Of a stretch of DNA of 57,418 nucleotides, positions 3,630 to 46,719 are shown one piece after another. The position numbers and the translations under genes are program-made. The stretch lies in contig JWZX01002380.1 of the NCBI GenBank assembly GCA_001275005.1, positions 1 to 57,418 of the forward strand. The letters are read 5' to 3'. Every line of letters starts with the position of its first letter. Within the stretch, counting starts at the first letter, position 1. Under the pieces are notes generated by a model. The model did not search any database, was not told the DNA's origin, and was given only the letters and a program-made list of their open reading frames with translations. This stretch comes from Chrysochromulina tobinii (taxonomy: Eukaryota).

Positions 3630-3775
3630 CAGCTCACTTCCAGCGCTCCGATGCCGGCTGAGTGCACCTCTGACTGTGCCTGATTGCAGCTCACTTCCAG
3701 CGCTCCGATGCCGGCTGAGTGCACCTCTGATTGCGCCTGATTGCAGCTCACTTCCAGCGCTCCGATGCCGCCTGA
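3630..3775. repeat. 57-bp tandem repeat (about 2.5 copies) duplicating the stop-codon region of the minus-strand ART-like gene, with GCAATCAG/GCACTCAG filler
   Basis: CAGCTCACTTCCAGCGCTCCGATGCCG starts at 3630, 3687 and 3744; the third copy contains the real stop (ASERWK*). Confidence 0.9.
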
Positions 3776-6700
3776 GTGGCGGCCGCCTGGCCGCGCTGGA
3801 TCAGATACTCCTTGAGCAGAGAGGAGTTGGCCGGGGTGCTGGGTAGCGGCGGGGCGCCCCCCTCCCGCGCCTCCCTCGATCTGGAGAGCTCCGTGGGGGC
3901 GCCGAGCTGGGCGCCGCCCTGGATCACGAGGGTGTGTGCATCGGGCGGGGGCCCAAAGGACGGGTGCGTCGCAGGCTGTCCACTCAGCTCGGCGGCCTTT
4001 CGGAACGGGTTGCCCCTGTGCACCCGCCCAGTGAACGCATGCCCTCCGGTGCCATTCGTGCCATTCGTGCCCGAGCGCGCCCCACCCGTCCCACCCGCCA
4101 CACCCGCCGCACCCGCCGTACTCGGACGGACGCGAGCTGGAGCCGTGCTGGGCGCCGAGCGGCTCAGGGGACGGCTCAGAGGTTCGACACTCAGCAGCTC
4201 GCCGAGATTGGCATCGAGATTCGTGTCGAGATTCTCGTCGCTCAGCAGCATGCCGCCGACGCCGCCGGCCGCGGTCGGTGCGCCAACCGGCGTGCAACCA
4301 CGCGCCGTCGTGAGCGCATACGAGCCCGCGGTCGAGCGTTGTCTTGGGCGCGGCAACGGCTCGTCGGGATGGTGGCGGCGGCGTGGGGCCGTCGCGGCCG
4401 TCGCCCAACATGGCGCGGGTACCTCGGCCGGCGGCGGCTCTGGAGGCGGGTAGAGGGCTTGCTGCGAATACGCTTGCTGCTTGTACGCTTGCTGCGCGTA
4501 ATACGTCTGCACGGCTGGCGAGGAGAGCGCCTGCTGCGAGTCAGGGTACATCAGGTGCTGTCCGTGGTACATCGGGTGCAGTCCGGGGTGCGTTGGCTGC
4601 GGCGGTGAGCAGCCGGCGTACCCCTGCGCGTCGCCCAACACAGCGCGCGCGTGCGCCTCAGCCTCTGGCGACGTGTGCTCGTCGGTCCAGTGAGGCTGCG
4701 CTGTGTTGGGCGCGTGGCTGAGCGAGGGCATGGGCGAAGGCGTGGGCAGCGCTGTGTTGGGCAACGGCTGCGCTCCGGCGACGCCGAGCTCATCGGCAGA
4801 TGGCATCTCCCGCGATCTCGCGTGCTCCAACGGCCGATCGTACCGCGGTCGAGCGCCGTCCCGAGCGCCGTCCCTGCCGAGCGAGGCGCCGTACCGAGCA
4901 CCACCCCCGCCCACGACGGTCGAGCGCTCCGGCTCGGCAGGGTCGGCGCTCGTTACGGCGCCCACGCTCGGTACGGCGCTCAGCCCGCCGATGCGTAGGC
5001 AGGCGCACGCGTGCCTCGCCGCCTCGACGGCCTCATGCAGGGCCTCGTTCTCGCTCTGCAGCCGCTCGAGCCGCTTCTCATCCTCCTCGGCCAGCCGACC
5101 GCTCCCCTCCGCATCGGCCGGGTGGACGCCGTCCCGAGCATCAGCGCCGTCCCGAGCACCAGCGCCGTCCCGAGCGTGTAGCACGATCGCTGCGCCGGCG
5201 CTGACCGACTCGCTGTGCACGAGCGTCCTCTCAGACAAGGCCATCGCCTCCTCCGCCGTCGCCATGGCCTTCGACGCCGTCGCCATCGCGTCGCCGGCGC
5301 CCGCCTCCCCCTGTGGAAACGGCGCCTCCCCCTGTGGAAACGGCCACGGACGCACTGCGTCAGCCTCCGCGGCGGCAGCGAGCCCGGCCCGCACCGCCGC
5401 GGCCGCCTCCATTTTGGCACGCACGCTCGAGCCCGCGCTGTGAAGCATCTTGTTCACACGCTCCATGGCCTGGGCCTTGGTCCGGTGCCTGAGGAGCTCG
5501 CCTGTCTGCGACGAGAGCTTGTCGCGTCAGATGCAATCCAGTGGCAATCAGATGTAATCAAGGGGCCATCAGTGGCCCTCACCTGCTTCGATAGCTTGTC
5601 GCGCAGCTCGTTGCGCTCGCGCTCGAGGGCAGCGTTCTTAGCCGCCAAGGCCGCGAGGCCATCGCTCAGCCCTCGCATCTCGCCCATCGCGAGATCGCGC
5701 CGGCGCTCGTATGCGGCGGCCTCGCGCCGCCACGGGCGCCCCGCCTCCTTGGCCCAGCTGGTGCTCACGCCGAGCACAATCACGAGCACCTGCTTCATCC
5801 GATGCAATCCAGTGGCAATCAGATTTAATCCAGTGGCAATCCGATGCAATCAAGTGGCCGAGCACAATCACGAGCACCTGCTTCAAGAGCGTTCATCAGA
5901 TGCAATCCAGTGGCAATCAGATGCAATCATGTGGCCATCAGATGCAATCAAGTGGACGAGCACCTCGCCAGCGTCCATCGCGGGGAAGCTGCTGCCACCG
6001 CCGGCGCCGTCCTGGGCGCTCTCGACGCTGGTCAGGTAGGTGCGCCTGAGGTCGAGCGCGCACACGGGTGGGAAGACCGCATCGGCGCGGCTCTCGTACT
6101 GCGACAACCACGAGATGTCGGCCGCCCGGTCGACGGCGCTTTGCTCGAGCTGCAGCACGGTCTGCGCGCCCGCGACGACGCTCGCAAAGCTCATCGCATG
6201 CTGCCGACTGCTGGTGCAGGCAAGCACGCCCCACTCGACGCCCGCGACGGCGCCCGCCAACGCGGCACCTCCGCTGCCGCTGCTCGTCAACGGGGCGGCG
6301 GTGGCGCCGCCGCTCACCGGCAAGGGCGTCGTGCCGGGCGTGACGAGGGGATGGGACGGTGCCGCGCTGTGTTGGGCGGCGCCTGGCGTCGGCAGGCCAG
6401 CGGCAGGCGGCGCGCGGTACAAGGGTGTCGAGGCCTCCGCGATGCGCCCGAGTTTGCCCAGGCACGCCGCGAGCGTGTGCAGCGTCGCCGGGTACGCGTT
6501 CGCGCGGTTGGTGACCTCAAACGCGCGCGCGAGCTCAGCGGCCGCGCGGCCGAAGCGCGCGGCCGCATACTCGCCCAAGACGGCGCGTCGCTCGTCGGCG
6601 GGCAGCTTGGCGAGGCGCGCCGTGCCGAGCGCGCGCAGCGCCACGTTGTACTTGGCCTGCAGATGCAATCAGATGCAGTCAGGTGCAGTCAGATGCAGTC

Positions 6701-8865
6701 AGATGCAATCAGATGCAATCAGCTGCAGTCAGATGCAGTCAGCTGCACTCAGAGGCACTCAGAGGCACTCAGATGCACTCAGAGGCACTCAGCTGCATTC
6801 AGATGCAATCATCTGCACTCAGCTGCACTCAGCTGCACTCAGACGCAAAAAGCTGCACTCAGAGGCAATCAGCTGCACTCAGTGGCACCTCGCCGCACGG
6901 TCCTGTGAAGAGGCGCGCCGCTGTGAACTCTGCGTCGCTCAGGTTGGACTCGCCGAGTTTTCGTAACCGCACGCCCACGCGCTTGCGCCCCGCGACGAAG
7001 CGCTCAGCACGGCGCGCGAGCGGTTCGCGCGGGAGCCACGCGCCCTTGGGGGCGTGCCCCGTCGCCTGATGAGGGAGGTCATCAGTGGTCATCAGAGGTC
7101 ATCAGGGGTCATCATCATCATTGGGGGCGTGCCCCGTCGCCTGATCGATGGTGGCGGTGGTCATCAGTGGTCATCAGTGGTCATCAGTGGTCATCAGTGG
7201 TCATCAGTGGTCATCAGTGGCCATCAGTGGTCATCAGTGGTCATCAGTGGCCATCAGTGGTCCTCAGTGGTCATCAGTGGTCATCAGTGGTCATCAGTGG
7301 CCACACGCCTGATCAATGGTGGCGATGGGTCGGTACGTCTCCGTCGGCCAAGCTCCCGGCATCAGGCCCAGGCGCTCGCGCGCCGTGTCGAGCGCCTCGC
7401 GGTCCGCCTCCGTCGCGCCTCCGTCGATGCCCCCCTCCATGGTCGGGTCCACCACGAACCACCACTCCACACACGAGGTCGTGTGCACGCCATACGTGCC
7501 CGCGAACACGAGATGCGCATCTGGCCCGCTCGTGTGTTCATGCCGCATCGCCTCGAGGGTCAATACGCCTTCCTCGAGGCCTCCTACGAGCCCGTGGAGC
7601 CCGCTGAAAAAGTCCGACGGCCCACCGAGCACTGAGGCACGCCCGAGGCGCTCGAAGCTCTCCGCCTCAAACTCGCGCGCTGGAACGAAGCGCTTGCGGG
7701 GGCGCGCGCGCGTCAGATGGGACTGTGGAGGCGCCGTGCCGGGCTCGGCCGTTGAGCCGCTGACCTCTTCGGCCACAGACTGCTGTGAAGGCTGCTGTGA
7801 AGGCTGGTGTGAAGGCTGCTGTGAAGACGGCTCCGAGATCGGCTCCGTGGGCTCCTCAGCCGACGAGGCCTCGGCCGCCCCGGCGCCCGGCACGGCGCCC
7901 GGCACGGCGCCCGGCACGGCGCCCGGCACGGCGCGTTGGCGCGCCGCTCGTTCCGCCAGAGCGTGTGCGCGCGCCTCGGCCTGCCCATGCAGCAGCTGGG
8001 CGCGTGCCACCACGCGCTGCGCCACCAGCCCGAGCAGGTCGTCGCCTGCGCCTCCCTCGGTGAGCATGCTCTTGACGAGCGCGCGCGCCGTGCTGAGCGC
8101 CCCCTCGTGCGCGAGCGCGCCGCCGCCGCTTGCGAGCGCGCCGCCGCCGCTTGCGAGCGCGCCGCTGCCGCTTGCGAGCGCGCCGAGTTCTCTCACGAAC
8201 TCCCTCTCGAGCGCACACAGCTGCGCCTCGGCCTTGGCAGGCGCCGGATCGAGCGCGAGGCGCTTCGAGCTGCGCTGGAGATACCGGCGCACGCTCAGCC
8301 GATCGCGAAGCAGCGCGGTGAGCTCGAGGCCCTCCAGCCAAGCACCGAGCTGCCACCGCGCCGGCGAAGCGGCGGCGACCTCGAGCGCAGTCTCGCCAAC
8401 GTAGTCCGACACGGCTCGGAGCTCCGCCTCGGCCGCGGCCGTCGCCCGGCTGACGGCGGCGGTCAGAGACGCCTCCAGTGCCTCCGAGCGCGCTCCGCGG
8501 CCGAGCTCGGCGCGCAGCCGCGCCACCTCTGCGTCGCGCTCGCGCAGCTTCTCCTCGCTCGCGTGCAGCCTGTCCTTGGTCTCGCGCATCTGCCTAGAGA
8601 GCAGCGACTTATCGGAGCGCGCCAGAATCTCCGACAGCTGCTCCTCTTCGACTTCCGGCCTCTTTGGCTTGGCAGCGGGCGCGGCCTGCTGCGGCGCCGC
8701 CTGCGCCGAGCGCAGCTTGATGCGAAGCGACGCATTCTCCGCCTTTATGCTAAGCATCTCCGACAGAGATGTCTTGAGGCTGCTATTCTCCTCGACGAGT
8801 CGCTGGTAAGCCATGTGCAGGCGCTGCAGCTCGTTGACCAGCTCGGTGGCAGTGTCGAGTGACAT
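3748..8865 (-). CDS. About 1463-aa protein: N-terminal coiled coil, degenerate ARTC-type (R-S-E) mono-ADP-ribosyltransferase-like domain, coiled coil and disordered C-terminus
   Basis: Exons 8865-7309, 7065-6889, 6656-5964, 5789-5583, 5505-3748 (all phase 0, frame closes). Motifs FFSGLHGLVG..EAMRHEH..YGVHTTSCVEWWFV, RLFTGP..KYNVALR..NAYPATLH..LYRA..GVEWGVLACTS..DRAADISWLSQY match algal ART-family proteins as I recall them. Confidence 0.75.
5506..5582 (-). other. 77-nt GT-AG intron with CTGATTGC array; acceptor supplied by a copy of the upstream exon end
   Basis: The exon ends GCGACAAGCTATCGAAGCAG|GT and the intron ends GCGACAAGCTCTCGTCGCAG|ACA. Confidence 0.8.
5790..5963 (-). other. 174-nt GT-AG array intron with a 10-nt flanking duplication (AGGTGCTCGT) and an internal copy of acceptor plus exon start
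   Basis: GAG|GTGCTCGT ... CAG|GTGCTCGT; internal copy at about 5857-5886. Confidence 0.8.
6657..6888 (-). other. 232-nt GT-AG intron made almost entirely of 10-mers (CTGAGTGCAG/CTGATTGCAT/CTGACTGCAT)
   Basis: Splicing joins FTGPCGE|AKYNVALR in frame. Confidence 0.85.
7066..7308 (-). other. 243-nt GC-AG array intron containing a copy of its own spliced junction
   Basis: (ACTGATGACC)n arrays flank CGCCACCATCGATCAG-GCGACGGGGCACGCCCCCAA at 7121-7156. Confidence 0.8.
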
Positions 8866-9046: not shown

Positions 9047-10180
9047 ATGAGCCGGACTCTGGAGGCTCAGGCAGAGCACGCGCCCCGTGCAAGGTGGCCG
9101 ACCCCCCCAAGTGGAGAGTACGTTCATGATGTGGCATACGACTACTACGGCCAGCGGGTGGCGACGTGTTCTTCCGATAACACGATAAAGATCTTCAACG
9201 AGCACGGTCGCAAGGTTGCCGAGTGGAGAGCGCATGGTGGCTCCATCTGGCGACTCTCGTGGATGCATCCCGAGTTCGGGGTGGCGCTGGCCTCCTGCTC
9301 CTTTGACCGCAAGGTGTGCGTCTGGGAGGACGTGGCCGATGCCGAAGAGGCAGCTGCGCAGCTCGACAGTGCAGCCGGCCGCGTGGCGTGGACACGCACC
9401 GCCGAGCTCGCCGATGCGCGCGACTCGGTGGTGGATGTGCAGTTTGCGCCACACCACCTTGGCGTGCGCCTCGCCTCTTGCAGCATGGACGGATTTGTGC
9501 GCATCCACGAGGCGGCCGACGTGCTCGACTTGTCCACGTGGGAACGGCACTCGGACTTCCATGCGGCGGCCGACACAGCCGCCTCCAAGGAGGGCGCGGG
9601 CGGCGCCGAGGCTGGAGGCGAGGGCGGCTACGCAGGCACCAGTCCTCTTTGCCTGTCTTGGTGCCCTTCGATCGTTGAGAACGAGCCGATGCTCGTGGTC
9701 GGCCTCTCCGACGGCTCTGCAAGGCTCTGGCGAGGCCACGAGAGCAGCTGGTCCTGCGTGCTCAGCCTGGGCCTCGGCGGCGCCCGCTGCCACGCCGACT
9801 GCGTGCGCTCGGTGAGCTGGGCCATGGATGCGGGCCGCTCGTACCAGCTCGTCGCCACAGCGTCGCGCGACCAGACGGTAAAGCTGTGGGCTTTGCGACG
9901 CACATCGGTGGCCGAGGAAGACGATGCCGCGGGCGCTGGGCCCGAGGGCGGCGGAGGCGCTGGCGCCGGTGGCGCCGTTAACCCCCCTGCGGATGCCCTC
10001 GGCGACGGATGGAGCGCAAGGTGCTGCGCCGAGCTGCCGCATCGTTCGCAGGTCTGGCGTGTCTCTTGGAACGCAACCGGATCGATGCTCGCTACGTCGG
10101 AAGATGATGGCACTGTGACCGTCTACCAAATGGACGCAACCGGCGGTTGGCGCTTCGCCAGGCCTGTGGCCTGCCAGTGA
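9047..10180 (+). CDS. SEH1: Nucleoporin/GATOR2 WD40 protein SEH1
   Basis: HDVAYDYYGQRVATCSSD, WMHPEFG..LASCSFDR, DVQFAPHHLG, GRSYQLVATA, VWRVSWNATG; intronless. Confidence 0.9.
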   Translation: MSRTLEAQAEHAPRARWPTPPSGEYVHDVAYDYYGQRVATCSSDNTIKIFNEHGRKVAEWRAHGGSIWRLSWMHPEFGVALASCSFDRKVCVWEDVADAEEAAAQLDSAAGRVAWTRTAELADARDSVVDVQFAPHHLGVRLASCSMDGFVRIHEAADVLDLSTWERHSDFHAAADTAASKEGAGGAEAGGEGGYAGTSPLCLSWCPSIVENEPMLVVGLSDGSARLWRGHESSWSCVLSLGLGGARCHADCVRSVSWAMDAGRSYQLVATASRDQTVKLWALRRTSVAEEDDAAGAGPEGGGGAGAGGAVNPPADALGDGWSARCCAELPHRSQVWRVSWNATGSMLATSEDDGTVTVYQMDATGGWRFARPVACQ

Positions 10181-10266
10181 AGAGCCATTAGTGCCATCAG
10201 TGCCATCAGTGCCATCAGTGCCATCAGTGCCATTAGTGCCAGGCCTGTGGCCTGCCAGTGAAGAGC
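10157..10266. repeat. 29-bp direct duplication spanning the SEH1 stop, flanking a (GTGCCATCA)n 9-mer array
   Basis: GCCAGGCCTGTGGCCTGCCAGTGAAGAGC at 10157-10185 and 10238-10266. Confidence 0.95.
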
Positions 10267-22401: not shown

Positions 22402-24400
22402 CTACCCAGGATCGATTCGCGCAATGTACTCGGTCGTAGAAGGCCCGTTCCTTGTAGTGTAAGTCAAGTCGGGCGAGCGCTCCTTGGCGCGTTCGATGCG
22501 CCAGCGCATCAAGCTGCCGATACAATGGCCGATGGCACCGATCGAGAGTACGACGACGAAGGCGACCGTGTTCTCCCATGAGGAGTAGAGATTCGTCAAA
22601 AGAGCGCTGACGGCAAAGCAGAACGGCAGCAAGCAGTAGCAGACGGCGGTCTGCACGCCGCCCGGCAGCTGGAAGGGACGCTCGACGTTCGGGCGCTGTA
22701 CTCGCAGCGCGATGAAAGAGTACAGGAAGAGGCAGTGCGAGCATGCGAACAGCATCATCTCCACCTCGACGAGCGCCTCGAGGTGAAACTGATGAGGGAG
22801 GCAATCATGGGTCATCAGTGATCATCAGAGGTCATCAGAGCGCCTCAAGGTGCACCTGATGAGGGAGGCAATCCATCGCACTCAATGGCACTCGTTCATT
22901 CAATCGCAACGTGAGTCGCACAGCTGAGCGAAACAAGGAGCTATGCAGGAGCTATGCGTGGCCATCCGTGGCGATCTCCGGCACTCGAGATCAGCTCGGG
23001 ATGATCTCCGGCACTCGAGATCAGCTCGGGATGCACCTGGGTCAGGCAGCCCGCAATCGTCGCGTTGAAGAGTACGTTGGCGCGCGACATGCCGCCGCCC
23101 TCTGGCTCGGTCTTCAGCCAGAGGGTGAGCGAAGCCAAGCAGCGTCGGTGCAGCATCGGGGTCTGCGCGGCCTCCAGCGGGGGCTCATTCATGCGGGGGG
23201 TGAGCCTCGACGGCGGCGGGGCCTCTCGATTCAACGGCAGCAGGCACGTGAACCCAAGGTCACTCAAGTACGCGTGAACAAAGGCGCCGCACGAGCGCTC
23301 CGCCGCGATGACCTGCGAGTGGTACAGGCCGACCTGCGCCATGTTCGCGCCAACCACGAAGAGCGTCTTGAGCCACAGGCCGGAGAGCTGACCAGCGAGG
23401 GTTCCAAAGTAGCCCGCGTCGTAATGCTCAGTGTCGGGGTCGAGAGAGAGCGCGACGGCAAAGGGCATCACGTTGAGCGCGATGACGAGCGGCAGCAGGA
23501 ATGCGACGACGGCTGGGTAGGTGTACTTGGGATTTTCGACTTCACCCGCCATCGATCCGAGCGTCGAGAAGCCCGAGTAGAGCCACTGGAGTTCAACAAG
23601 GTGCCACAATGAGTCAGAGGGACAAGAGCACTCAGAGGCCCTCAGAAGCACTCAGAGGCACCCAGAAGCATTCAGAAGCAATCGTACCAGCGCCCACGAG
23701 ATGAGGAGAGCCCAGTCAGCATGCAATCAGCATGCAATCAGCATGCAATCAGCATGCAATCAGCATGCAATCGTACCAGCGCCCACGAGATGAGGAGAGC
23801 CCAGTCAGTCTCGCCTTCCGTCGAGGTGAGCACCTCGGGCTCGAGCCGACCGAGACCGATGACGATGAAGATGAGGCTCGGGGTGAGAGAGAGGAAGAAG
23901 ACGACGCTCTGCGAGGCCGTCACCCAGTCGAGGCCCATGCAGTTGGTCACCGCCACGCAGACGACCATGGCCAAGCAGATCCCCTGCTCGCTGCCCAGCC
24001 CCAGTTGGAGTGCCTTGCTCACGTACTTAGCGGCGATCTGCGGGTACACCGCCGCGTCGAGCAGGTTGGTGAACCACACCCAAAAGCAGTTGTGGCCGCC
24101 GATGCGCGGCCCGCACGCCTCGGCCGTCCACACGACCTGACCGCCGTCCACCGGGAAGGCGGTGGCAAGCTCGGCCGTCATGAGTGCGTTCGGGAGCGCG
24201 AAGCAGAGTCCAGCGAGCACCGTCCAGAGGAAGACGATCAGCGGCGGCCCCGACGAGACCATCGTCTCATTGCCGTACAGGCCGCCCGAGACCCAGAAGA
24301 AGCCGATGACCACGAGCGTGCACACGCCCACTCGCTTTTTTGCCTCGCTCTCCGATGTCGGTAACAAAACCTGCCGCTCGCCGCCAGGCGCGGGCATCAT
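22402..24400 (-). CDS. APC-superfamily polyamine/amino-acid permease (PUT/RMV1-like), about 519 aa
   Basis: FFWVSGGLYGNE, ALMTAELATAFPVDGGQVVW, NLLDAAVYP, WLYSGF..AGEVENPKYTYP. Exons 24400-23777, 23585-23037, 22788-22402 (phase 0, frame closes). The true start may lie further upstream. Confidence 0.88.
22789..23036 (-). other. 248-nt intron with arrays and an internal duplicate of acceptor plus exon start
   Basis: Internal GATTGCCTCCCTCATCAG-GTGCACCTTGAGGCGCTC versus terminal GATTGCCTCCCTCATCAG-TTTCACCTCGAGGCGCTC. Confidence 0.75.
23586..23776 (-). other. 191-nt array intron with an exact 42-bp internal duplicate of exon end plus donor
   Basis: 23678-23719 equals 23767-23808; splicing gives ISWAL|WLYSGF. 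Confidence 0.85.
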
Positions 24401-32061: not shown

Positions 32062-35000
32062 TCAGCAGAAGAGGTCGACCCGGACGCCGGCGGCATGGCT
32101 GCCACGTGGCCGCGCCGAGTCGAGCGCCGAGCAGCCGGCAGCGGGCTCGTTCACGGCAGCCACGTCGCTGTGAACCCAGCATTCGTAACGGCCATCGCGC
32201 GACCGCACCAGCCGACACGCGCTGCCGCGGGCGCCCAGCCGACACGCGCTGCCGCGGGCGCCGTCGCCGGCCGTTTCGAACGCACCCGCCGTTCCCAACT
32301 CGAGCGCCGTTCCGAGCAGCGGCGGGTGCAGCGGGCAGAGCACGTGGTCAAAGAGGAACTTGTACAAGAGCGTACGCACACGGTCGGTGCCGTACCGGAC
32401 GGAGCCCAACGGCCGCACCTAATGAGGGAGGTCATCAGAGGTCGTCAGAGGTCATCAGAGGTCGTCAGAGGTCATCAGAGGTCATCAGAGGTCATCAGAG
32501 GTCATCAAAGGTCATCAGAGGTCGGAGCCCAACGGCCGCACGTTGGTCAGGTGCTCACGCCGCCACGCGATGCTCTCGCTGACGGCGAGACCGTGCACGT
32601 CCATGCCGCCGACAGTACTGCCGCTGCCGCCAGCAGCGCCCGCCACAGCGCCCGAATACACGTGGCCTCCGCTCGCCACAGCGCCCGAATACACGTGGCC
32701 TCCGCTCCATGAGCTTACAAGCAGCCCGAGGAGCATCGGGCGGGCGGCGGGCGGCGCGGGCAGCAGCAGCGAGCGAGCCTCCTCCATCCGCGCGCGTAGC
32801 TGTGCATCGTGCGCGAGGTCGAGGAGGAGCACCTGATGAGGGAGGTCATCAGAGGCTCATCAGAGGTCATCAGAGGTCATCAGAGGTCATCAGAGGTCAT
32901 CAGAGGCTCATCAGAGGTCATCAGAGGTCATCAGAGGTCATCAGAGGTCATCAGAGGTCATCAGAGGTCATCAGAGGTCATCAGAGGTCGAGGAGTAGCA
33001 CCTCGGGCAACGAGTCGGCTGGTGCGGCTCGCAGCTCGTCGAGGAGTGCCAAAGGGCGTGCGTACCTGATGAGGATGGTCATCAGAGGTCATCAGAGGTC
33101 ATCAGAGGTCATCAGAGGTCATCAAGGAGCGCCAGAGGACGCGCGCACATGCATGCAGGCGTGGCCGCCACGACGTCGTAGAAGGTGCCGTCGGCGGGCA
33201 GGGGTGTGAACGGATAGGTGCTCGAGAGGACGCCCAGGTGATGAAAGCGCCACACGAGCGCGCCGAAGACTTTGATAGGCTCAGCAGCAGCCAATGGTAG
33301 TGGACGGCCAATGGAAGTGGACGGCCGATGGCAGTGGAGCGCCGTCGTGGGCGCCGGGGGCAGTGGACGGCCGATGGCTGTGGTGCTGGCGGACGCGAGC
33401 GACGAGGCGCTCACGACGGCGCTCGCGACGGCGCTCGTCGGCGCGCGCAGCTCGACGTGCATGCGCAGCATGCCGGCACGGCGCGGCACGAACTCGAAGG
33501 TGAGGTGGAGCGCCGTCGTGGGCGCCGGGTCGCGCGCCGTGTCGAGCGTCGCCAGGGAGTGCAGCAGCGCTTCGCCCTCGTCGACACCATCGTAGCGGCA
33601 GCACACCTGCATGCAATCAGCACGCAATCAATATGCAATCAGAACGCAATCAGCATTCACTCAGCATGCAATCAGTATGCAATCAGAATGCAATCATACT
33701 GCAATCAGCATGCAATCAGCACCCTCGTAGCGGCAGCATACCGCCGCGCGTGCAAAGGCCTCCGCACGCTCTCGTGCGGCGCCCGTGACGACGCCCAACT
33801 CAACGCCAGGACCGCTCCTGAGCCGCAGCTTGAGGTGGGCGTCGAGGCGCGCCGTCTCACCCTCGATAGCGCAGCGCAGCCTGATGGACAAGATCTCGAG
33901 GGCGGATACCTCAAAGTCAAACGCGGCTCCGCCCTCGAGATCTCCGCCCTTTGCGATCTCCGCACTCGAGATCTCAAAGTCAGACGCGGCTCCGCCCTCG
34001 GACAGCAGCGCCACGTCGCCGGGCGTGCGAGGATGCGACGAAACCCTCTGCTGGAGAGCGCCGTACTGATCGCCCTGAGCGTCGTAATGAGCGCCATGAG
34101 CGCCGTGAGCGTCGTCCTGAGCGCCCACCGCAACGCCATCGGGCTCCGTCCCCTTGAGCTCGACGCCCGTGGTGCTGCTCAATACGGCGCCCGGCGCTCC
34201 CAAATCGAGCACACGCACCTTGAGAGGCGTGCCTGCAATGAGGGAGCAATCAGCATGCAATCAGGGAGGCAATCAGCATACAATCAGGGAGGCAATCAGC
34301 ATGCAATCAGGGAGGCAATCAGCCTGCAATCAGGGAGGAAATCAGCATGCAAAGGCGTGCCTGCAATGCGATCGGTTCCGTTGAGGAGGACGGTGAGGTA
34401 ATGCAGGCCGGCGGTCTGCAGGTAGCCTTCACAGATGTAGACGCCCGCCTCGGCGCTCGGCGTGGTGGAGATGCGAGTGCCCGAGATAATACCCGAGGTG
34501 TTGCCCGAGGTAATGCCCGAAGTGGTGCTCGAAGGGCCGCTCACCTGCATCGGGGCAAGGCAACAACCCGCGGTCATCAGGGGCCATCGGGCGAAATTAG
34601 TAGCACTCCTAATGAGGCCATCATGAGCACACTCAGAGGCCATCCGCTCACCTGCACCTCAAGGCGGTCCTGCGCCGCGGGCCGTGCGTTACCGTACGTG
34701 TCGCACACGGCCACGGAGAAACGCAGCGCCGTGCCGAGCGCATGCGGCGCCGTGAGCAGCGGCCCGGCGGCTCGGACCTGATGAGGATGGTCATTAGAGG
34801 TCATCAAAGGTCATCAGAAGTCATCAGAGGTCATCAGAGGTCATCAGAGGTCATCAGAGGTCATCAGCGGCCCTGCGGCTCGGACCTTGCATGCAATGAG
34901 GGAGGCAATCAGCATGCAATGAGGGAGGCAATCAGCATGCAATGAGCAGCGGCCCGGCGGCTCGGACCTTGCATGCGGAGGCGGCGGCGGCGGCGGGCAA

Positions 35001-35614
35001 CACATTGAGAAAGTAGGGCGAGTCTCCAAGAGGGGCTGCCCCCTCCGAGCTACGGAAGAAGATGACGAGACGGCCCGAACGGACGGGCTGGAAGATGGCG
35101 CGGTAGGTGCCATCTCCGAGGCTCGAGATCCAAACGGCCACGTGGTCCTCGCCCGGGACGGCGTCTGCACGGAGCCCAGCCGCGGAGCTCACGACGACGA
35201 TCTCCACAGGGGAGATCGTGCCGCCCCCGCCGTTGCCGCCGTTGCCGCCGCCGCCGCCGCCGCCGCTTGCTCGCGGCTTGGAGGAGATGCGATTGCCGAA
35301 GCGATCACAGGCGCTGATGAGGAGTTCCTGACGCTCACCTGGGTTGACGAAGCTCATGAGTGGCAATCAATGACAATCAAGGGCAATCAAGGACATTCAA
35401 GGACCATCCTGGCGCTCACCTGCGATGGCGGTGCCCAAGCGCAGGCAGTCGCCGGTGAGGGTACAGTGCTCGGGCGACGGGGCGGCCGGTGAGACGAAAA
35501 TCGACGCCGGCGAGCCAGTGACGTCTACCCCGCCGTCGTCATCCACTAGAGCCGCCTCTCCACACAAACGATCAGTCCGCTGGCCGCCGTCGCCGCCGCC
35601 CTGCTCTCCTGGCA

Positions 35615-35654
<40 letters not shown>

Positions 35655-38600
35655 CTGCTCGCCTGGCACAGCTCCACGGTAGAGCTGCACCCGAAGCTCA
35701 TACGCCCCTGCCACCTCGCAGCACAGGCTCAGCTCATAGAGGCCAGCACGCACCTGATGAGGATGGTCATCATAAGTCATCAGTGGTCATCAGTGGTCAT
35801 CAGTGGTCATCAGCACAGGCTGAGCTCGTAGAGGCCAGCACGCACGTGGCGGATCGTCGGTGGCGGCAGCTCGGCACCTCGACGCCCGCTGAGCGACGCG
35901 CCGAAGTGAGCGCCTTCCGAAAGCGAGCACTCCACCCCCGCCGCGCTGCGTGCGATGACCTTGAAGTTGAGCGGTGTGCCTGCCACTGCACGGAGACGCC
36001 CGCCAGGTCGGGGGGTCGAAGAGCCTGCGCTCGCGCCCGCGACGGCGCCGTCGTCGATGCTGTTGCTGCTGCCGGCGCAGTCGCTGCTGGCGGTCGTGTC
36101 GAGAATGCACATGCGCGCCTCGACCGCCACCTTCTTTGCGCGCCTGCTGGCCGGCTTGGGCGAGCGACACAGCGCGGACCGCGCCGACTGGGTGCCACAG
36201 AGCACCAGCGTATGAGCGCCGCCGCATGCGACGCCGATGACCCTTACGGGCTCGACTACGTCGCCATCCTCTGTAGGCGCGCTCGAGGGGCGTTCTCGGC
36301 CTGGAGGTTCTCGATCTCGGGAGACCTCCATGCCGAGATCGAGGCCGAGATCGAGGCCGAGATCGAGGCCGAGATCGAGGCCCTCGAGAAAGGGGAGCGC
36401 CACACCTGCATGCAATCAGCACGCAATCAGCACGCAATCGAGGCCCTCGAGAAAGGTCCGCCCGGCACACCTCGCATCTCACTCGCAGCATCGCGCTCCA
36501 CCTTGGCGCCGCCGCCGCCGCCGCTGCTCGCCGCCACCGTACCGGTGCCGGTACGTAACGGTCGGCTGCCACCGGTAACCACAATGGCACCGGACGCGCG
36601 CGTGTGAGGCGTGGCAAGGCGCGCGGCCGCCTGCACGGTCGCGTGCATGGCGGCGGTTGGCTGGTCGAGTGGCTGATCGGACCCAAGGCGCCCTGAGCAC
36701 GACCTCCCCCATGAGATCACTCGGCCTGTGCGTGTCAAGGCGACCATGTGGTCCTCCGCACACGCCACCTCGGCTAAGGGATACGCCTCGACCGCCTCGA
36801 CAAGGCGTGGCTCGAGCTCATCGCCGCGCTGCGTGCCATGCCCGCATTGGTTCCAGGATCCACCTGGTGCGGCAATCAGTGGCAATCAGTGGCGATCAGT
36901 GGCAATCAGTGGCCATCAGTGGCCATCAGTGGCCATCAGTGGCAATCAGTTGGCAATTAGTGGCAATCAGTGGCAATCAGTGGCAATCAGTGGCAATCAT
37001 AGACAGGGCTTGGTCAGAGGCACTCAGTGGCAATCAAAGGCCACCGAGGCAATCAACGACACTCACTTCCCCAAGTCCATAACTGTCCCGCCTCGTCGAT
37101 GCACGCCGTGCACGCGCCGCCGCATGCAATCATCTGCACGCGCACGCCGGCAAGCGGCCCCAGCACCAACCGCGGCATGCGCTCGGAGCTGTTCAAGCCG
37201 TGCCCGAGTCGGCCATACCTGCATGCACAATCAGAGAGGCCATTAGCATGCCACATCAGCCATTAGCATGCACAATCAGAGGGAGGCGCCATCAGCATGC
37301 ACCATCAGCGAGGCCAGCATGCACAATCAGAGGGAGGCGCCATCAGCATGCACCATCAGCGAGGCCAGCATGCACAATCAGAGGGATGCCATCAGGGAGG
37401 TCATCAGCGAGGCCAGCATGCACAATCAGAGGGATGCCATCAGGGAGGTCATCAGCGAGGCCAGCATGCACAATCAGGGATGCCATCAGGAAGGTCATCA
37501 GAGAAGACACCAGCGAGGCCATCAGGGAGGCCATCACGCAGACCATCGGCAACCTATCAGCACGCAATCAGCACGCAATCGGCACGCAATCAGCACGCAA
37601 TCGGCACGCAATCAGCACGCAATCGGCACGCAATCAGCACGCAATCAGCACGCAATCAGCACGCAATCAGCACACAATCAGCACGTAATCAGCACGTAAT
37701 CAGCACACAATCAGCACGCAATCAGCACGCAATCAGCACGCAATCAGCATGCAATCACTCATACCTCCCCTCGCCCCAGGTGTACACGACGCCCTCATCG
37801 CGGGAGAGCGCGCAGCTGTGATAGTTGCCACAGGCGATCGCGCTACAGGCGACGCTCGCGAGCTCCGCCACGGAACTGGGCGTGAATACGTCGTGTGGCG
37901 CACGGACGGACGTCAATGTGAACACGTCGTGCCCATTTGGCGCGGCGACGCGCGGCTGCTCCTGCTCGGTGCCCAGCACAGCGCTCGATGGCCGCTCGTG
38001 CACGCTGCCCAGCCCGAGCTGCCCGAGCTCGCCCGCGCCGCACGCGAGTACAGCGCCCGGGCGCGAGAGGAAGAGCGTGTGCGCGAAGCCGCACGCGACC
38101 GCCACGACGCGAGTGCCGCTCAGCGCCGACAACATCTCCGGCCTGAGCACCAGATCGTCGTCGGCTGGCGTGCCGAGGCCCAGCTGTCCGTTGCTGTTGG
38201 AGCCGCACGCTAGGACGCGGCCGCGCGAGGTGCAAAAGACCGTGTGCTTCGCGCCGCACGCGACGCCCGCCAGCCGCTGCCCGTCGCACCCGATCGCTTC
38301 GGGCGTCATTCTCACGATCTTGTCCCCCATCCCAAGCTGCCCGTGCGCATTGTTGCCCCAGGCATGGGCGACGCCTTCCTCGTCGATGGCGACCGAATGG
38401 CTCGAGCCGGCCGCGATCAGGCGCACGCGGATGCCGCTCGTAAACATTGACCGAAGCGGCCGTGGCGCCGCACGCTCGACGCTGTCGCCCAGTCCGAGCT
38501 GCCCGTTGCCGTTCCAGCCAAAGGCAAAGCACAGACCGTCAGGAGATGCGGAGCTGCTCCACTCCTCACTGCGCTGTGGCGGAGGCGGAGGTAGCGCTGC

Positions 38601-38702
38601 GAGTAGGCCCTCGCTCGCGTGGAGCGCTAGAGCTCCCGCGCCGGAGCGCCGCGAGGAACGCTTCATGGGACCCAGCACAAATTGCGAGCGCCTCCGAAAC
38701 AT
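32062..38702 (-). CDS. About 1572-aa protein: RCC1 repeats, filamin-type Ig repeats and a C-terminal EDR1/ARMC3-like domain; 13 exons
   Basis: Introns 37219-37764, 36864-37066, 36406-36470, 35754-35845, 35339-35419, 34778-34967, 34545-34651, 34233-34360 (GC), 33607-33741, 33066-33148, 32833-33001, 32419-32541; exon lengths sum to 4719 nt in frame. Motifs GWNGNGQLG/ACGAKHT (RCC1); ACDRFGN..LGDGTYRA..GDSPY, IAGTPLKV (filamin); DGTFYDV..VLLLD..RPLGSVRYG..RTLLYKFL (EDR1-like). Confidence 0.8.
32833..33001 (-). other. 169-nt intron of about 14 TCTGATGACC units with a 20-nt flanking duplication
   Basis: AG|GTGCTACTCCTCGACCTC ... AG|GTGCTCCTCCTCGACCTC. Confidence 0.85.
35754..35845 (-). other. 92-nt array intron beginning with a 35-nt copy of the downstream exon
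   Basis: GTGCGTGCTGGCCTCTA(C/T)GAGCT(C/G)AGCCTGTGCTG occurs at both the donor and the exon start. Confidence 0.85.
37219..37764 (-). other. 546-nt array intron with 11-mer (CTGATTGCGTG) tract and 48-51-bp higher-order repeats
   Basis: AG|GTATG at both ends; splicing gives the RCC1 motif WGEGR-YGRLGHG. Confidence 0.85.
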
Positions 38703-40711: not shown

Positions 40712-40879
40712 ACATCAGCTGGTGCTCACGTCACGGGGTCCACCCAGAATTGGAAGTGTTAAATGATGCCAATTGTTAACACCCCTCGGCGCTCTGAACG
40801 GCGCTCCGATCTGATTTTCATGAGGACGGAGTTCTTCTTGCTGAACGTCGCGTCGACGTAAAGCACACCATAGCACCAC

Positions 40880-43051
40880 ATGGGCAGTAGTAGCAGCACG
40901 CCGAGTACTCCGGCAAAGGTGCTCCCGAGCCCACGGCAGTCGCTTCCGAGTCCACGGCTGGCTCCACCTCCGAGTCCAAGGCGGGCTCCACTACCGTCCG
41001 AAAGCAGCAGCAGCAGCAAGGCTGGAGCGCCGCCGCCGACGACGACTCCGCGGCTGGCCCCGCAGGAACTGCTCCTGCGGCTCGAGGGGCCAAAACTCGA
41101 GGCCCCACTCGAGCGGCTCTCCATTGCCGAGCTCCGTATCTTCATCGAGGTGGCCGAGCTCCCTATGCCGGAGGGCAAGCTCGAAAAGGCCGACTTGGTG
41201 ACTCGCGCGAGGTGTCTCGGACCGCTAAATGGCCTGCGGCCAGCGCAGCTCAAGCGGCTGATTGAGGCGACGGCGCACGAGCACTCCGGCTGCGTCGAGA
41301 AGGCCGAGCTGATCGCGTGCCTGCTCGCGGCCATCGAGGCCGGAGGCAAGGCGACGCGGGAGCGGCCCGTGACGGACGAGCACGGACTCGAGCCCGGCAA
41401 GAGTAACTTTCGTCTGGCGGCGCAGGAATGGAGCGAGCGCGAGCGCGAGCTGGCCGACGAGATGGCCGCGCGCGCGCGCACGGCGGCCGAGCGCTACCGT
41501 ACCGAAGAGACGCTCAAGGCGCGCGCGATGCTCGCAGCTGCCGAGGTGGAAGAGCAAAAGGAGGCCGAGGAGCGCGAGGCGGCGGCGGCGGAGAGGCGCT
41601 GGCTGCAGGAGCGCAAGGTGCTGCTGCAAGTGGAGGCAGCTAACCAACAGGTCAAGCTGCTCGAGAAGCGCCTCGCCCTCTAATGACCTCTAATGACCTC
41701 TAATGACCTCTGATGACGCCCTTGATTGCCTCCCTCATCAGGTCAAGCTGCTCGAGAAGCGCCTCGCCCTCGAGCATGAGCAGCAGAAGCGTCAGGCCGC
41801 CGAGCGCGATCATCTCGAGGCGAAGCTTCGAGAGGCGACCCAGGCTACTGTGAGGGCGCATGCCTCGGAGGCAGCCCACGCGGCCGAGTCGCAGATTACG
41901 CGCCTGCAGCTCGAGGACAACCAGCGCCAGATGGAGCAGCTGCAGGTGTGGATCCGGCGCTCCAAGGAGGGCCGCCTGATGACCTCTGATGACCTCTGAT
42001 GACCTCTGATGACGCCCTTGATTGCCTCCCTCATCAGGCCGAGCTGCACACGCTCCAGAAGCAGCATGAGCTCGAGAAGGAGATCTTGATCTCCTCCGCC
42101 AAGATTGCCGAGCAGCAGCAGCAGCAGGAGCAGGAGCAGCAGCAGGAGCAGGAGGAGCGGCTGCGCAGGAATGCGCCCTCGGAGCCGCCGCCGACGCCGC
42201 CCGCGTCGAAGCAGCAGCACCTGCTTCAGCTCCTGGCGGCGGGCCCTGCGCGTCCGAGGGCGGCTTCTCGTGACTCGGTGGCTTCCACTGCGGCGGCGAC
42301 CCCCGTGGCCACCAGCGCGGGGCCGTCAAAGTACTACAGCGACGAAGAGGAGGCGATGATGGCCTTGTACGCCGAGGCGGACCAGGCCGATCCGGAACGG
42401 GTGGATGAGGACGAGGCCGAGGCATTTGCGTCCCATCGACGTGCCATTGACGCCCTGGCCGCTGCGGCGACGCCTGCGCTCGATGCCCTGGCCGCATCCG
42501 CACCGAGGGGGCTGACAGGGGGGGGCGACACAGGGGGGGGCGACACAGGGGGGGTCGTGTCGCCCTCGTCTCGTGTGCAAGCACTGCTCAGCGAAACAGC
42601 CCCCGAGGGTACCTGGTCCGCCGTGCCGCACGCCCAGCAGCCGCCCAGCACGGCGCCGCTTGGCCTCGCCCAACTCGGCGCCCGGCCCAACACGACGCTC
42701 GGGGTGAGCCGGGGCTCGATGGACAGCGGCGCGCTCCTGAATCGAGGCGCCCAACACGGTGCCCAGCACGGCGCCGGGGGCGAGCCGCTGCCGAATACGA
42801 AGCAGCGCGTCGAGGCCGCGCTCGAAGCGCTCTACCGTAAGAACGGGGGTGAGGCGCCTGGGCTCCTGCTGCAGCAAGTTCGCATCCCGAACTCGCGCAT
42901 CCAACGGTTCCCCCGTCCAGGTGAGCCGCTCAGTACGGCGCTCAGCCCTCCGGACGCGGCGCTGCCGGTGACGTCGACTCTCTTGAGGGGCCTTGCCGCG
43001 TGGCCCTCGCCGTCGCCGGCCTCGCGGATGCCCTTGCCGGCCGAGCTATGA
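40880..43051 (+). CDS. About 662-aa coiled-coil protein with two SAP/HeH-like motifs
   Basis: LSIAELRIFI...LEKADLV and LRPAQLKRLI...GCVEKAELI; exons 40880-41650, 41742-41945, 42038-43051 (phase 0). Confidence 0.7.
41651..41741 (+). other. 91-nt intron: perfect 33-bp flanking duplication, (TAATGACCTC)n array and shared 3' terminus
   Basis: CAGGTCAAGCTGCTCGAGAAGCGCCTCGCCCTC at 41648-41680 and 41739-41771. Confidence 0.9.
41946..42037 (+). other. 92-nt array intron whose last 39 nt are identical to those of the preceding intron
   Basis: 41999-42037 equals 41703-41741. Confidence 0.85.
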
Positions 43052-44036: not shown

Positions 44037-46719
44037 CTACTCGCCGCGCGACCCTCGCGGTGTGCCTGAGCTCGTTGAGGAAGGCGACGCTCCGCCTAAC
44101 GCTCCGCCGGCGGCCTCGTCGTCAGGCCAAAGTAGCCATGCGACGAGGATGGTGACGTTGTCCATCGAGCCGCTGTCCATCGCCTTGCGCATGAGCGCGC
44201 GCGCCGCCGCGAGCGCGCTGCCGTGGCCGTCGACGTCCCCTCCGGGGGGAGGGGGATGCACTACGCCGCGCCCTCGCGCCGCGGTGCATGCAATCTGGAC
44301 AGCCTGCGAGTCATCGACCACATCCCACAGCCCATCGCTGGCCATGATGAGGAGCCGATCGTGCGGTGAGAGTTCGTGTGAGAGGACCTCGGGCTCGTGC
44401 GACACGAGGGGCACGCTTGTGCACCTCTTGAGCTCCCGGTTACCTGATGAGAGGGGCAATCAGACGTCATCAGAGCGAGGAGGGAGGCAATCAGACGTCA
44501 TCACGGTGGCCCTCTTGAGCTCCCGGTCACCGAAGGCGCGGCTGATGGCAAGCATGGTCGACGTGCAATCAAGGGCGTCATCAGAGGTCATCAGAGGTCA
44601 TCACCGAAGGCGCGGCTGATGGCAAGCATGGTCGACGTGCCCGGTGGACCGGTGACCCGCCAGCAGCCGTTAATCGAGCGAACAAAGCCGCCCGACGCGC
44701 GCACGCGCTCCGCCTCCTTGGGCAGGTCTGGCTTATGGTCGACGCTCAGCCGATGCGCTTCAAGCTCACGCTCACGCATCGAGCGGCCCGAGTTGCCGCT
44801 GAAGCGCGCGTGCGGCGCCGCCGGTTTGCGTCCGAGCACCGCGCGCGTGTCGCCGCAGTTGGCGACATCGAGGGTCGTCCCGCGCAGCAGGGCGCAGAGC
44901 ACGGTCGTGCCGTCCGTGAGCACCTTGCGTGTCGCGAGCTCGAGGAAGTCGGTGTCGACCTGTTTAACGCAGATGCACTCAGAAGCACTCAGAAGCACTC
45001 AGAAGCACTCGGATGCACTCAGAAGCACGCAGATGCACTCGGATGCACTCAGAAGCACGCAGATGCACTCGGATGCACTCAGATGCACTCAGGGCTCATC
45101 AGAGGGTCCTGCTCGACCTGTTTGAACGCCAACGTGAAGGCGCGAGAGACCGCCTCCGCCGGCACGGCCGCAAGGTCCAAAGTGGGTGGCGCTGTGGTGG
45201 GCACGGCCGCAAGGTCCAAAGTGGGTGGCGCTGTGGTGGGCGCGGGGCCCTCCGACGTGTCTGGAGGCGGCGGGAGCGCGGCAGGCGGCAGAGCGGCAGG
45301 CGGCGGGAGCGCGGCAGGCGGCGGAGCGGCAGGCGGCGGCGGAGCGGCAGGCGGCGACGCGACATGTGGCGCTGTGGTGGGCGCCAGAGAGCGGTATGTG
45401 AGCGCGGGCGCGTCGTCATCCAGCGAGCCCCGAAGCTCAGCGACCACTGCGGCTTCGGCCGCTGCCTCCGCCGTCGCCTCCGCCGCCGCCGCCTCATGCG
45501 TCAGCATGCATGTGCTCAAAACGGCGCCTCGACCACGGCGCGCATCGAAAGCGTCATCCAGCCATGCCGGAGCGTCGTGGTGAGCGTCATGGTCGAAGGC
45601 AGTGATCTCGTCCGCCTCGGGTGCAGCGCCAGGGCCTGCTGCGGCTCCTGCTGCGGCTCCTGCTGCTGCTGCGGCTCCTGCTGCGGCTGCGGCTGCGGCT
45701 GCGGCTGCGGCTGCGGCTCCTGCTGCGGCTGCTGCGGCGGCGGCGGCGGCGGCTTCTGCTGGTGGTGGTTCCGCTGCTGCTGCTTCTGTTGGCGCCGCCG
45801 CCGCTGCTGGCGCCGTTGCCGCCGCTGCCTGCTGCTGCTGCCGCTTCTTGCGCTCGCCTTTGCGCTCTTTCCACGCCTGCCAGGCGCCCTCGCCGTCAGT
45901 CGACTCGGGCTCCGTCTCGGTCACGTCATCCTCTGCCTCGACGGCACCACTGCCGCGCCGAGCCGCACTCGCACGGCGCGCATCGAAAGCGCCCTCCAGC
46001 CATGCCGGAGCGCGGCCACTCGCGGCCAAACCCGAAGGCTCACTCTCCATTTGAGACGGCGGCGCCGACGATCGCGGCGCCGACGACCGCGGCTCGCCCT
46101 GGGTGCGGCTCCACCAGCAACCAGGGCGCGTAGCAACCAGGTGCTGCTGGTGGAGCAGCTCGGCGGCAAGTGCAGCCACCAGGCGCCGCGGCAGCTGTGC
46201 CTTCGCGAAGTCGCAGCAGTTGATGCCGCCGTGCCCGTCGAGCACGCTCAGGTACGAGGCACCCTCAAGGCCAGCGTGCAGCTCGCCCAGGTTGGCGACG
46301 ACATCGTGCCGGTCCTCCATGTACGGCCGCCTGCCTTGAGCTTCGACGACAGCCCACGCGAGGCGCGGGCCCGCCGAAGCGTCGGCGGCGGCGCCAGGCG
46401 TGGAGGGCAGTGGTCCAGCAGCAGCTGCAGCGGCGGCGGGCGCGGAGGCCTGGGGCTCGCTCGAGGGAGCGGGTGCGTCACCCGACGGGGAGCAGCGCAG
46501 AAGCTTACGCGCACGCATCTGGCTGGAGCTCCCCGCCGGCGTGGGGCCGGCATGATCGAATCGAGCCGCTGTCACGTCAGCCAGTGAACGTGCGGGCTGC
46601 TCAGCGCCAGTCTCCTCAAGCTCCTCGGCAAAGGAGAGCAACAAGCCGGCTTTGCGCGCCTTGAGCTTGGGCCTGGTGACAGCTGGTGCCGTTGTGGCGC
46701 CAGCCATGCTCGCTTCCAT
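44037..46719 (-). CDS. PP2C/PPM-family Ser/Thr phosphatase with a large low-complexity insertion (about 787 aa)
   Basis: QGRRPYMED, DGHGG, GTT, VANCGDTRAVL, LSVDHKP, LAISRAFG, IMASDGLWDV, GSMDNVTI; exons 46719-45118, 44959-44605, 44443-44037. Confidence 0.92.
44444..44604 (-). other. 161-nt array intron containing a 56-nt copy of its spliced junction
   Basis: 44511-44566 joins the upstream exon end to the downstream exon start. Confidence 0.85.
44960..45117 (-). other. 158-nt (CTGAGTGCAT/CTGAGTGCTT)n intron with flanking duplication
   Basis: GCGTTCAAACAG|GTCGA ... GCGTTAAACAG|GTCGA. Confidence 0.85.

What the first reader, a model, noticed from the sequence alone, without database searches (positions are those of the whole stretch)
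41703..42037. Shared 3' terminal module among introns of unrelated genes
Seen: 41703-41741 and 41999-42037 are identical over 39 nt (ATGACCTCTGATGACGCCCTTGATTGCCTCCCTCATCAG), and the same block up to ...CTTGATTGC lies in the PP2C intron (44565-44602). Ten acceptors end in (CTCC/CATC/CCCT)CTCAT(C/T)AG: 7066, 22789, 32419, 32833, 33066, 34778, 35754, 41741, 42037 and 44444. A second class ends ...CATGCAG (33607, 36406, 37219). Inference: a common template or donor element, or gene conversion between introns; independent local slippage would not give identical non-repetitive ends.
Basis: partly seen in the sequence, partly recalled or inferred. Interest (0 to 1): 0.72.

Follow-up and report, generated by a model that had tools for sequence, protein, structure and literature searches.

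The report
Introns built by copying other introns
In this alga many introns consist of a 13–35-base copy of the gene's own next exon followed by a piece shared with other introns, and one intron begins with 29 bases matching an unrelated gene's exon, which likely records a repair-type copying process that makes new introns out of old ones.

Summary
In 21 of 42 repeat clusters (125 kb, haptophyte), the first 13–35 nt of the downstream exon are copied just upstream of the repeats. Controls give 0.5% (permuted) and 3.9% (random AG). The copy supplies the GT/GC donor; the repeats and module supply the acceptor. RNA contigs support eight introns. Intron 41946–42037 has no local copy. Its first 29 nt match, at 28 positions, a conserved exon of an unlinked PIP5K gene whose intron has the same 3' module: a whole intron likely moved. 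Junction microhomology, antisense and nested inserts, and a second, non-repetitive filler family favour microhomology-guided templated insertion with target duplication (0.5) over RNA-templated copying (0.22) or a dedicated element (0.15). No master copy or enzyme was found, but no genome was held. Gain at new positions is inferred, not shown. The scan noted the duplication footprint before, on another piece of this genome (e1-2577349).

The parts
41651..41741 (+). Intron 1 (91 nt, GT-AG): 30-nt exact copy of the next exon's start, three decamers, shared 3' module
   Evidence: RNA joint skipping 91 nt in 2 of 4 runs, ambiguous because 33 nt fit either side; frame restored
41648..41680 (+). First copy of the 33-nt direct repeat (second copy 41739-41771); contains the donor GT
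41703..41741 (+). 39-nt shared 3' module with branch-like motif and acceptor AG
   Evidence: branch role inferred from motif position
41946..42037 (+). Intron 2 (92 nt, GT-AG), no local exon copy; likely a whole intron copied from an unlinked gene into a CAG|G site
   Evidence: RNA joint skipping 92 nt in 2 of 4 runs, only 4 nt ambiguous
41946..41974 (+). Foreign 5' segment: 28 of 29 nt identical to the exon start after the L007 intron (acceptor L007 9647, minus) of a 7TM-PIP5K gene
   Evidence: segment is conserved protein sequence in P0001 and P0003; Pfam PIP5K
41999..42037 (+). 39-nt shared 3' module, second copy; 36 of 39 identical to the L007 intron's end (37 of 39 in strain copy L013)
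40874..43051 (+). Host gene (664-codon frame after removing both introns; no Pfam family)
44444..44604 (-). Holds a 20-nt exon copy plus module and a later nested insert
   Evidence: frame restored only with donor 44604; same bounds from a gene finder blind to repeats; no RNA joint seen in 4 runs
44565..44602 (-). Module fragment without the AG, between 38-nt direct repeats (44527-44564 and 44601-44638)
44960..45117 (-). Intron (158 nt) whose two splice sites both lie in a 17-nt direct repeat, filled with decamers
   Evidence: RNA joint in 2 of 4 runs
32062..38702 (-). RCC1-repeat gene with 12 repeat-bearing introns; one open frame of about 1,570 codons after removal
   Evidence: five introns fit RNA contig lengths exactly (425 and 749 nt)
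3630..3773 (+). Two tandem module inserts between about 30-nt direct repeats that include the stop codon of the minus-strand gene; antisense, not a spliceable intron
   Evidence: host strand from codon model only
10157..10266 (-). Repeat insert between 29-nt direct repeats that include the stop codon of the plus-strand WD40 gene; antisense
5506..7308 (-). Four repeat-bearing introns of a minus-strand gene, including the mirror type (end of the upstream exon copied at the intron's 3' end: acceptors 5506, 7141)
   Evidence: no RNA laid here
22789..23776 (-). Two repeat-bearing introns of an amino-acid permease gene; nested insert at 23723-23763 between 42-nt direct repeats
   Evidence: no RNA laid here

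Best explanation
These are spliced introns made of a long copy of the host exon plus a piece shared with other introns, and they likely arise when a broken or stalled DNA end briefly copies part of an existing intron and then rejoins its own gene a few tens of bases back. Inferred steps: (1) a 3' end inside an exon anneals by 2-7 nt to the repeat tract of another intron, often one nearby; (2) it copies through the repeats, usually to the acceptor; (3) it re-anneals 13-40 nt upstream, duplicating that stretch. If the duplicated stretch starts with GT/GC and the copied piece ends in AG, the result is a clean intron. Mirror products (donor imported, acceptor from the duplication) and whole-intron copies (41946-42037) would come from the same process. 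Products that do not splice would survive only inside introns, in frame, or over a stop codon, which is where they are seen. Each new intron is followed by GT and carries repeats, so it would be a template for the next round. Slippage and unequal exchange later change repeat and unit numbers.
For: Shown: exon-start copy in 21 of 42 clusters against 0.5% of 1,722 permuted pairs and 3.9% of 2,000 random AG sites; lengths 13-35 nt, not fixed. Splicing of eight introns in RNA contigs, one of them ambiguous. Foreign 5' segment traced to a conserved exon, beside an intron with the same 3' end. Microhomology at the copy-to-repeat junction: mean 2.4 nt against 1.24, p about 0.002, 15 of 23 junctions testable. 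7 nt shared at one return junction. Inserts with the same long repeats but no AG end, nested in introns (44565, 23723), and three antisense inserts (3630, 10157, L018 about 160-230 in frame, 51 nt). A second, non-tandem filler family with 23-41 nt repeats at 4 sites. The nearest 3' end lies in the same gene for 11.8 of 33 introns against 6.0 expected, p 0.005.
Against: No ortholog DNA lacking any window intron was seen, so gain at a new position is inferred. In nine strain-to-strain alignments no whole repeat-bearing intron was missing, and the single presence/absence candidate ends at a contig end (L005). Half of the clusters (21 of 42) fail the automatic test. The second return junction tested shares only 0-2 nt. 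Mean 3'-end similarity is no higher within genes than between them (p 0.57). A strand-blind DNA process should leave many inserts between genes (about 16% of the sequence), yet only one intergenic tract was noticed and it has no repeat. Both non-coding antisense inserts straddle stop codons, so a bias to coding DNA remains unexplained. The whole-intron copy fits reverse splicing equally well. The host strand for the 3630 insert rests on a codon model.
Confidence: 0.5

Rival explanations
1. RNA-templated copying. Excised introns or pre-mRNA are copied by a reverse transcriptase (reverse splicing, template switching on mRNA, or priming at a DNA nick), which gives sense-strand, gene-targeted inserts that end at the AG.
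For: Most inserts are sense and end exactly at AG. The whole intron 41946-42037 sits precisely in a CAG|G site. Strong bias to genes; nearest relatives in the same gene.
Against: Three antisense inserts and two nested ones end inside the repeats, not at AG. Mirror-type introns import the 5' part instead. No RT among 85 frames, which is weak without the genome.
Confidence: 0.22
2. A non-autonomous mobile element (introner, or a very short LINE/SINE tail of tandem repeats) moved by an enzyme that makes long, variable target duplications.
For: Shared terminal module at 6 sites in 5 regions and at 45 or more flanks in one DNA run. Variable duplication plus a repeat tail with microhomology resembles target-primed retrotransposition (own knowledge). 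The earlier scan note e1-2577349 read it this way.
Against: No fixed element: unit sequence, length and both ends vary, and two unrelated filler families share the layout. No terminal inverted repeats: 2-7 nt best match in 15 introns. No common continuation beyond the module. A passenger exon piece was carried to another gene.
Confidence: 0.15
3. Renewal of old introns. A 'mirage' duplication of an existing intron end plus exon start, followed by loss of the original intron, leaves the same layout at an old position; gene conversion homogenises the modules.
For: Mirage-like arrays exist here (22856/22789, 5878/5790, L009, L017 8801-9043). Some old exon copies (5 differences in 24 nt at 33066) sit beside perfect repeats.
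Against: It needs a precise loss at most sites. It does not explain antisense, nested or mirror inserts, or the foreign 5' segment.
Confidence: 0.08
4. Species acceptor consensus plus independent slippage of branch-site words.
For: A branch-like motif has its A 17 nt before the end in 16 of 33 introns; repeat numbers differ between strains.
Against: 32-39 nt identity at unlinked loci, 13-35 nt exon copies and the 28 of 29 foreign match cannot come from a consensus.
Confidence: 0.05

Closest known systems
Intron gain at staggered double-strand breaks (Daphnia; PMC4202315 passages, PMC3443670 section 9)
   Same: Insert flanked by a direct repeat of the adjacent exon end; repeated events inside young introns.
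   Different: Repeats at Daphnia intron ends are 4-12 bp (33 cases); here 13-35 nt and up to about 40. In the passages read the Daphnia filler is of unknown or mitochondrial origin; here it is a piece of another intron that brings splice signals.
Introners (Gozashti et al. 2022, PMC9860276 and its preprint; Roy et al. bioRxiv 10.1101/2020.10.14.339549)
   Same: One splice site carried, the other taken from the duplicated target. Families of similar introns in unrelated genes. Chrysochromulina MAGs and Emiliania huxleyi are listed as introner-bearing.
   Different: Reported duplications are 3-9 bp and family-specific (4 bp for the Chrysochromulina example). Here they are long and variable, similarity covers only one end, and the filler is repeat-rich, which that pipeline filters out.
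Intron transposition (reverse splicing or RT template switching; PMC3443670 passages)
   Same: 41946-42037 is a whole-intron copy in a CAG|G site of an unrelated gene.
   Different: One case only; most introns here are partial copies with a long target duplication. The source is traceable through a passenger exon segment.
Intron gain by tandem genomic duplication (PMC3443670 passages) and amphioxus 'mirage' minisatellites (PMC3087553 passages)
   Same: Duplicated exon sequence supplies splice sites; secondary arrays of intron-exon boundaries occur.
   Different: The duplicated stretch is too short to be the intron, and in most cases the acceptor is imported, not duplicated.
10-11 bp tandem repeats in Emiliania huxleyi introns (genome paper of 2013; recalled, not held)
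   Same: Decamer and 11-mer arrays in haptophyte introns.
   Different: I recall no link to exon copies or intron gain; not checked.

Membership tests
Introner (MITE-like) | Similarity between introns reaching both splice boundaries | tested here: not met
   5' ends are host-specific exon copies in 21 of 42 clusters; met only in part by the pair 41946-42037 / L007 9647
Introner (MITE-like) | Short target duplication of fixed length (3-9 bp) | tested here: not met
   13-35 nt, median 22; 41946-42037 alone can be read as a 4-nt duplication
Introner (MITE-like) | Terminal inverted repeats | tested here: not met
   best match 2-7 nt in 15 introns; many introner families also lack them
Introner (MITE-like) | Autonomous partner in the genome | not testable with these tools
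   no genome held; none in 85 frames scanned
Intron gain at staggered breaks | Direct repeats at intron ends above background | tested here: met
   with two controls; no set of dated old introns was available as a third control
Intron gain at staggered breaks | Intron absent from the ancestral allele or ortholog | tested here: inconclusive
   one candidate at a contig end (L005 against window and L004); none other in nine alignments
Intron transposition | Whole intron with both ends in a non-paralogous gene, source identifiable | tested here: met
   one case: 28 of 29 nt at the 5' end match the source gene's exon, 36 of 39 at the 3' end match its intron; the present source intron keeps only 8 nt of that 5' copy
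Intron transposition | RNA intermediate | not testable with these tools
   only contigs were available
Tandem genomic duplication | Both splice sites from the duplicated stretch and intron body equal to exon copy | tested here: not met
   22 of 39 curated inserts copy only the downstream exon; 4 of 39 score on both sides, and in all the body is repeat filler (five boundaries there were mis-set)
SINE/LINE target-primed insertion | Variable target duplication with repeat tail and junction microhomology | tested here: met
SINE/LINE target-primed insertion | A common element body beyond the tail | tested here: not met
   diverse flanks on both sides in DNA run X1; no Rfam match

The most novel reading that the evidence does not exclude
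A self-feeding route of intron gain with no dedicated mobile element: ordinary introns serve as templates for duplication-plus-insertion events in coding DNA, each product is a ready template for the next, and passenger exon pieces let intron genealogies be traced gene to gene across a haptophyte genome.
Probability: 0.35. Interest if true: 0.85.

Novelty: new variant of a known kind. Interest (0 to 1): 0.7.

Why it matters
How new spliceosomal introns arise outside transposon bursts is an open question; a 2012 review counted only 14 clear transposition cases and 5 break-repair cases (PMC3443670, Table 1). Here about 40 repeat-bearing inserts in 125 kb keep readable footprints: which exon was duplicated, where the filler joined and, once, which gene donated the intron. 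Standard introner screens would discard this class. A genome-wide census in these algae would make the DNA-versus-RNA question directly testable.

Tried and rejected
No whole genome was held, so there is no genome-wide clustering. A viral-contig scan for the last 19 nt found 0. Rfam found 0 in five sources. Summed contig depth over the repeats in RNA runs was not used; it is no measure of expression, so an abundant module RNA is neither shown nor excluded. The first flank test (42 of 61 tracts at score 14 or more) was dropped because tracts of one intron were counted apart and flanks held repeat words. Its strand call (39 of 61 sense) was unreliable for the same reason. The curated table used the duplications to set many donors, had five mis-set boundaries (36864, 31090, L017 1799, 3431, 11855), a sixth found later (36406), and included the antisense insert at 10171. 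Its class counts are therefore descriptive only, and its microhomology mean (3.4 against 0.68) was replaced by the stricter. Mismatches are not clearly enriched next to the acceptor (9 of 126 against 20 of 358), so copying past the AG is not supported. Whether relatives' PIP5K genes lack the introns could not be told from proteins. The PP2C label was not confirmed by Pfam. Paper searches listed no description of this layout in haptophytes. The library lacks most subscription papers, two wanted papers were not held, the Gozashti supplement was cut when stored, and its intron sequences were not seen.

Full report
Setting. The window is GC-rich eukaryotic DNA (59-69% GC). The best named relatives of a window kinase are Chrysotila carterae and an entry whose name is cut at 'Coc', which I read as a coccolithophore, so the organism is most likely a haptophyte. 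Chrysochromulina is my guess from GC content (63.4% in PMC4580454, passages), not a result. No genome was held. One metagenome scan with the last 32 nt of the module gave 22 stretches, which collapse to 6 sites in 5 regions plus close strain copies. The non-redundant set used below is the window plus L007, L009, L017 and L018, 124,816 bases. The four loci were chosen for the module, not for any duplication.

Observation. The 39-nt identity, the 44565-44602 block and all 13 acceptors are as described. The two 39-nt copies are in one gene, and 8 of the 13 acceptors are in one RCC1-repeat gene.

These are introns. RNA contigs skip 41946-42037 and 44960-45117, each in 2 of 4 runs. They also skip 41651-41741 in 2 of 4 runs, but 33 nt fit either side there, so an assembly graph could make that joint without splicing. 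Two contigs of run X14 are short by exactly 425 nt (190+107+128) and 749 nt (546+203). A DNA contig runs unbroken through the 107-nt intron. Removing the introns gives frames of 664 codons, about 1,570 codons and 804 codons. No joint was seen for 44444-44604 in 4 runs; its bounds rest on frame and on a gene finder that knows nothing of repeats.

The missed half. Intron 41651-41741 starts with an exact 30-nt copy of the next exon's start. Of 48 repeat clusters, 6 had no acceptor nearby or lay at an edge. In 21 of the other 42, the exon start is copied just upstream of the repeats (score 10 or more), against 0.5% of 1,722 permuted pairs and 3.9% of 2,000 random AG sites. Lengths are 13-35 nt, median 22. 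The test misses copies hidden by merged clusters (7066, 5790, 22789, L018 8946). It also counts two inserts later found to be antisense (3746, 10171) and one nested insert (44542). Of the 6 sites with the 32-mer, 4 have a 27-30 nt copy at the donor, one has a 21-nt copy set 13 nt off, and one has none. Mirror introns copy the end of the upstream exon at their 3' end (5506, 7141), and some take both sites from the repeat (34233, 44960).

A traceable transfer. Intron 41946-42037 has no local copy. Its first 29 nt match, at 28 positions, the exon start that follows an intron in the unlinked locus L007, and no other distinct place among the fetched sequences within 5 mismatches. That gene is a 7TM-PIP5K. 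The segment is coding sequence conserved in homologs at 90% and 67% identity, so the exon is the source. The L007 intron ends in the same module (36 of 39; 37 of 39 in strain copy L013) and keeps 8 nt of its own exon copy. Inference: the L007 intron was born by duplication plus module and was copied whole into a CAG|G site of the window gene before its 5' copy decayed. The neighbouring introns in both genes carry the same module. A third, unseen intron as intermediate is not excluded.

Footprints of mechanism. At the join between exon copy and repeats, bases shared with repeat words from other genes average 2.4 nt against 1.24 expected (p about 0.002; 8 of 15 have 3 or more; 8 of 23 junctions could not be tested). 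In a second, non-tandem filler family, seen at 4 sites with 23-41 nt repeats, one return junction shares 7 nt with the template and the other 0-2 nt. Module pieces that stop short of the AG sit between 38- and 42-nt repeats inside introns (44565, 23723). Three inserts are antisense to their genes: two cover stop codons (3630-3773; 10157-10266, WD40 gene) and one is a 51-nt in-frame insert in an EF-hand gene of L018. So both filler ends and the strand can vary, and the AG-ended sense form is likely what selection keeps. The nearest 3' end lies in the same gene more often than expected (11.8 of 33 against 6.0, p 0.005), but mean similarity does not differ (p 0.57).

Against this reading. Intergenic inserts are nearly absent although about 16% of the sequence lies outside called genes. 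Gain is not shown. Nine strain alignments shared their repeat-bearing introns and differed in repeat number. The exception is L005, which turns into a module near window 42900 where the window and L004 do not, but it ends one base after the AG. Precise sense insertion of a whole intron is also what reverse splicing predicts.

No master element found. In DNA run X1, 49 contigs enter and 45 leave the terminal module with little agreement (0.48 and 0.4), which shows many loci and no common body. No RT, transposase or endonuclease domain appeared in 85 frames, no Rfam family in 124,816 bases, no match in viral contigs, and no terminal inverted repeats in 15 introns. These are weak negatives without the genome.

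Literature seen. Gozashti 2022: preprint passages and part 2 of 5, journal passages and supplement rows. Duplications there are 3-9 bp; the pipeline needs similarity at both ends and drops repeat-rich families. 'tobin' occurs once in the stored, cut supplement, in the list of genomes screened. Roy 2020 preprint: part 1 of 4, 4- and 8-nt duplications. PMC12130899: passages. PMC3443670: passages and section 9. PMC4202315: passages, 4-12 bp repeats. PMC11782384: abstract only, repeats of 4-30 bp, mean 11.4, near borders of 213 introns of all classes, so long repeats at intron ends are not unheard of. PMC3087553: passages, mirages. PMC11282704, PMC4580454, PMC12480563: passages, nothing on this layout. 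Templated insertion by polymerase theta: search listing only, otherwise own knowledge. Preprint supplements were not available and could hold haptophyte families of this kind.

Earlier scan notes. e1-2577349, on another piece of this genome, reports a 66-nt intron with a 15-nt repeat and reads it as a mobile family. It agrees on the footprint, which I had found before looking. I did not test its count of related introns. e1-7275744 gave the 'mirage' lead.

Verdict. The feature is real, spliced and more than a consensus. It works like intron gain at staggered breaks, with filler taken from other introns, and once like intron transposition. It fails the usual introner tests. New variant of a known kind; interest 0.7.

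Noticed in passing
L009 9971-10370 (+): A 75-nt unit (exon piece plus whole module) repeats about five times in a TBC-domain gene and is free of stops in frame, so it may be translated as a 25-residue repeat; copy number differs between assemblies and strains.
   Followed up: partly
window 44444-44604 (-): The spliced phosphatase reads Asn where the intron's copy of the same codon reads Asp; the Asp is what I recall as conserved in PP2C enzymes.
   Followed up: no
L017 3447-3527, 11478-11554; L007 14245-14336; L018 8128-8237; window about 25725-25760: Second, non-tandem filler family with the same long direct repeats; the window copy lies in a homeodomain frame and has no repeat.
   Followed up: partly
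L005 contig end, opposite window about 42900: A strain contig turns into the module where the window and L004 continue as exon; possible intron presence/absence polymorphism.
   Followed up: partly
window 3630-3773 and 10157-10266: Both antisense inserts outside reading frames duplicate the stop codon itself, which suggests the process aims at coding DNA.
   Followed up: partly
L007 8192-11625 (-): Seven-transmembrane domain fused to PIP5K.
   Followed up: no
window, many genes (15224-17389, 46588-49710, 50499-54029): Long frames without repeat introns lie beside genes with 12 of them; the repeat introns are strongly clustered by gene.
   Followed up: no
curated inserts: 32 of 39 have stop codons in all three frames, as 10- and 11-nt units containing TGA must give; retained introns would likely be degraded.
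   Followed up: no
L009 394-3673 and 4288-7576: Inverted pair of sodium/calcium exchanger genes, 94% identical.
   Followed up: no
window 716-2395 (+): Decapeptide-repeat protein (PF25296) with a short module-like acceptor at 1108 inside an open frame.
   Followed up: no
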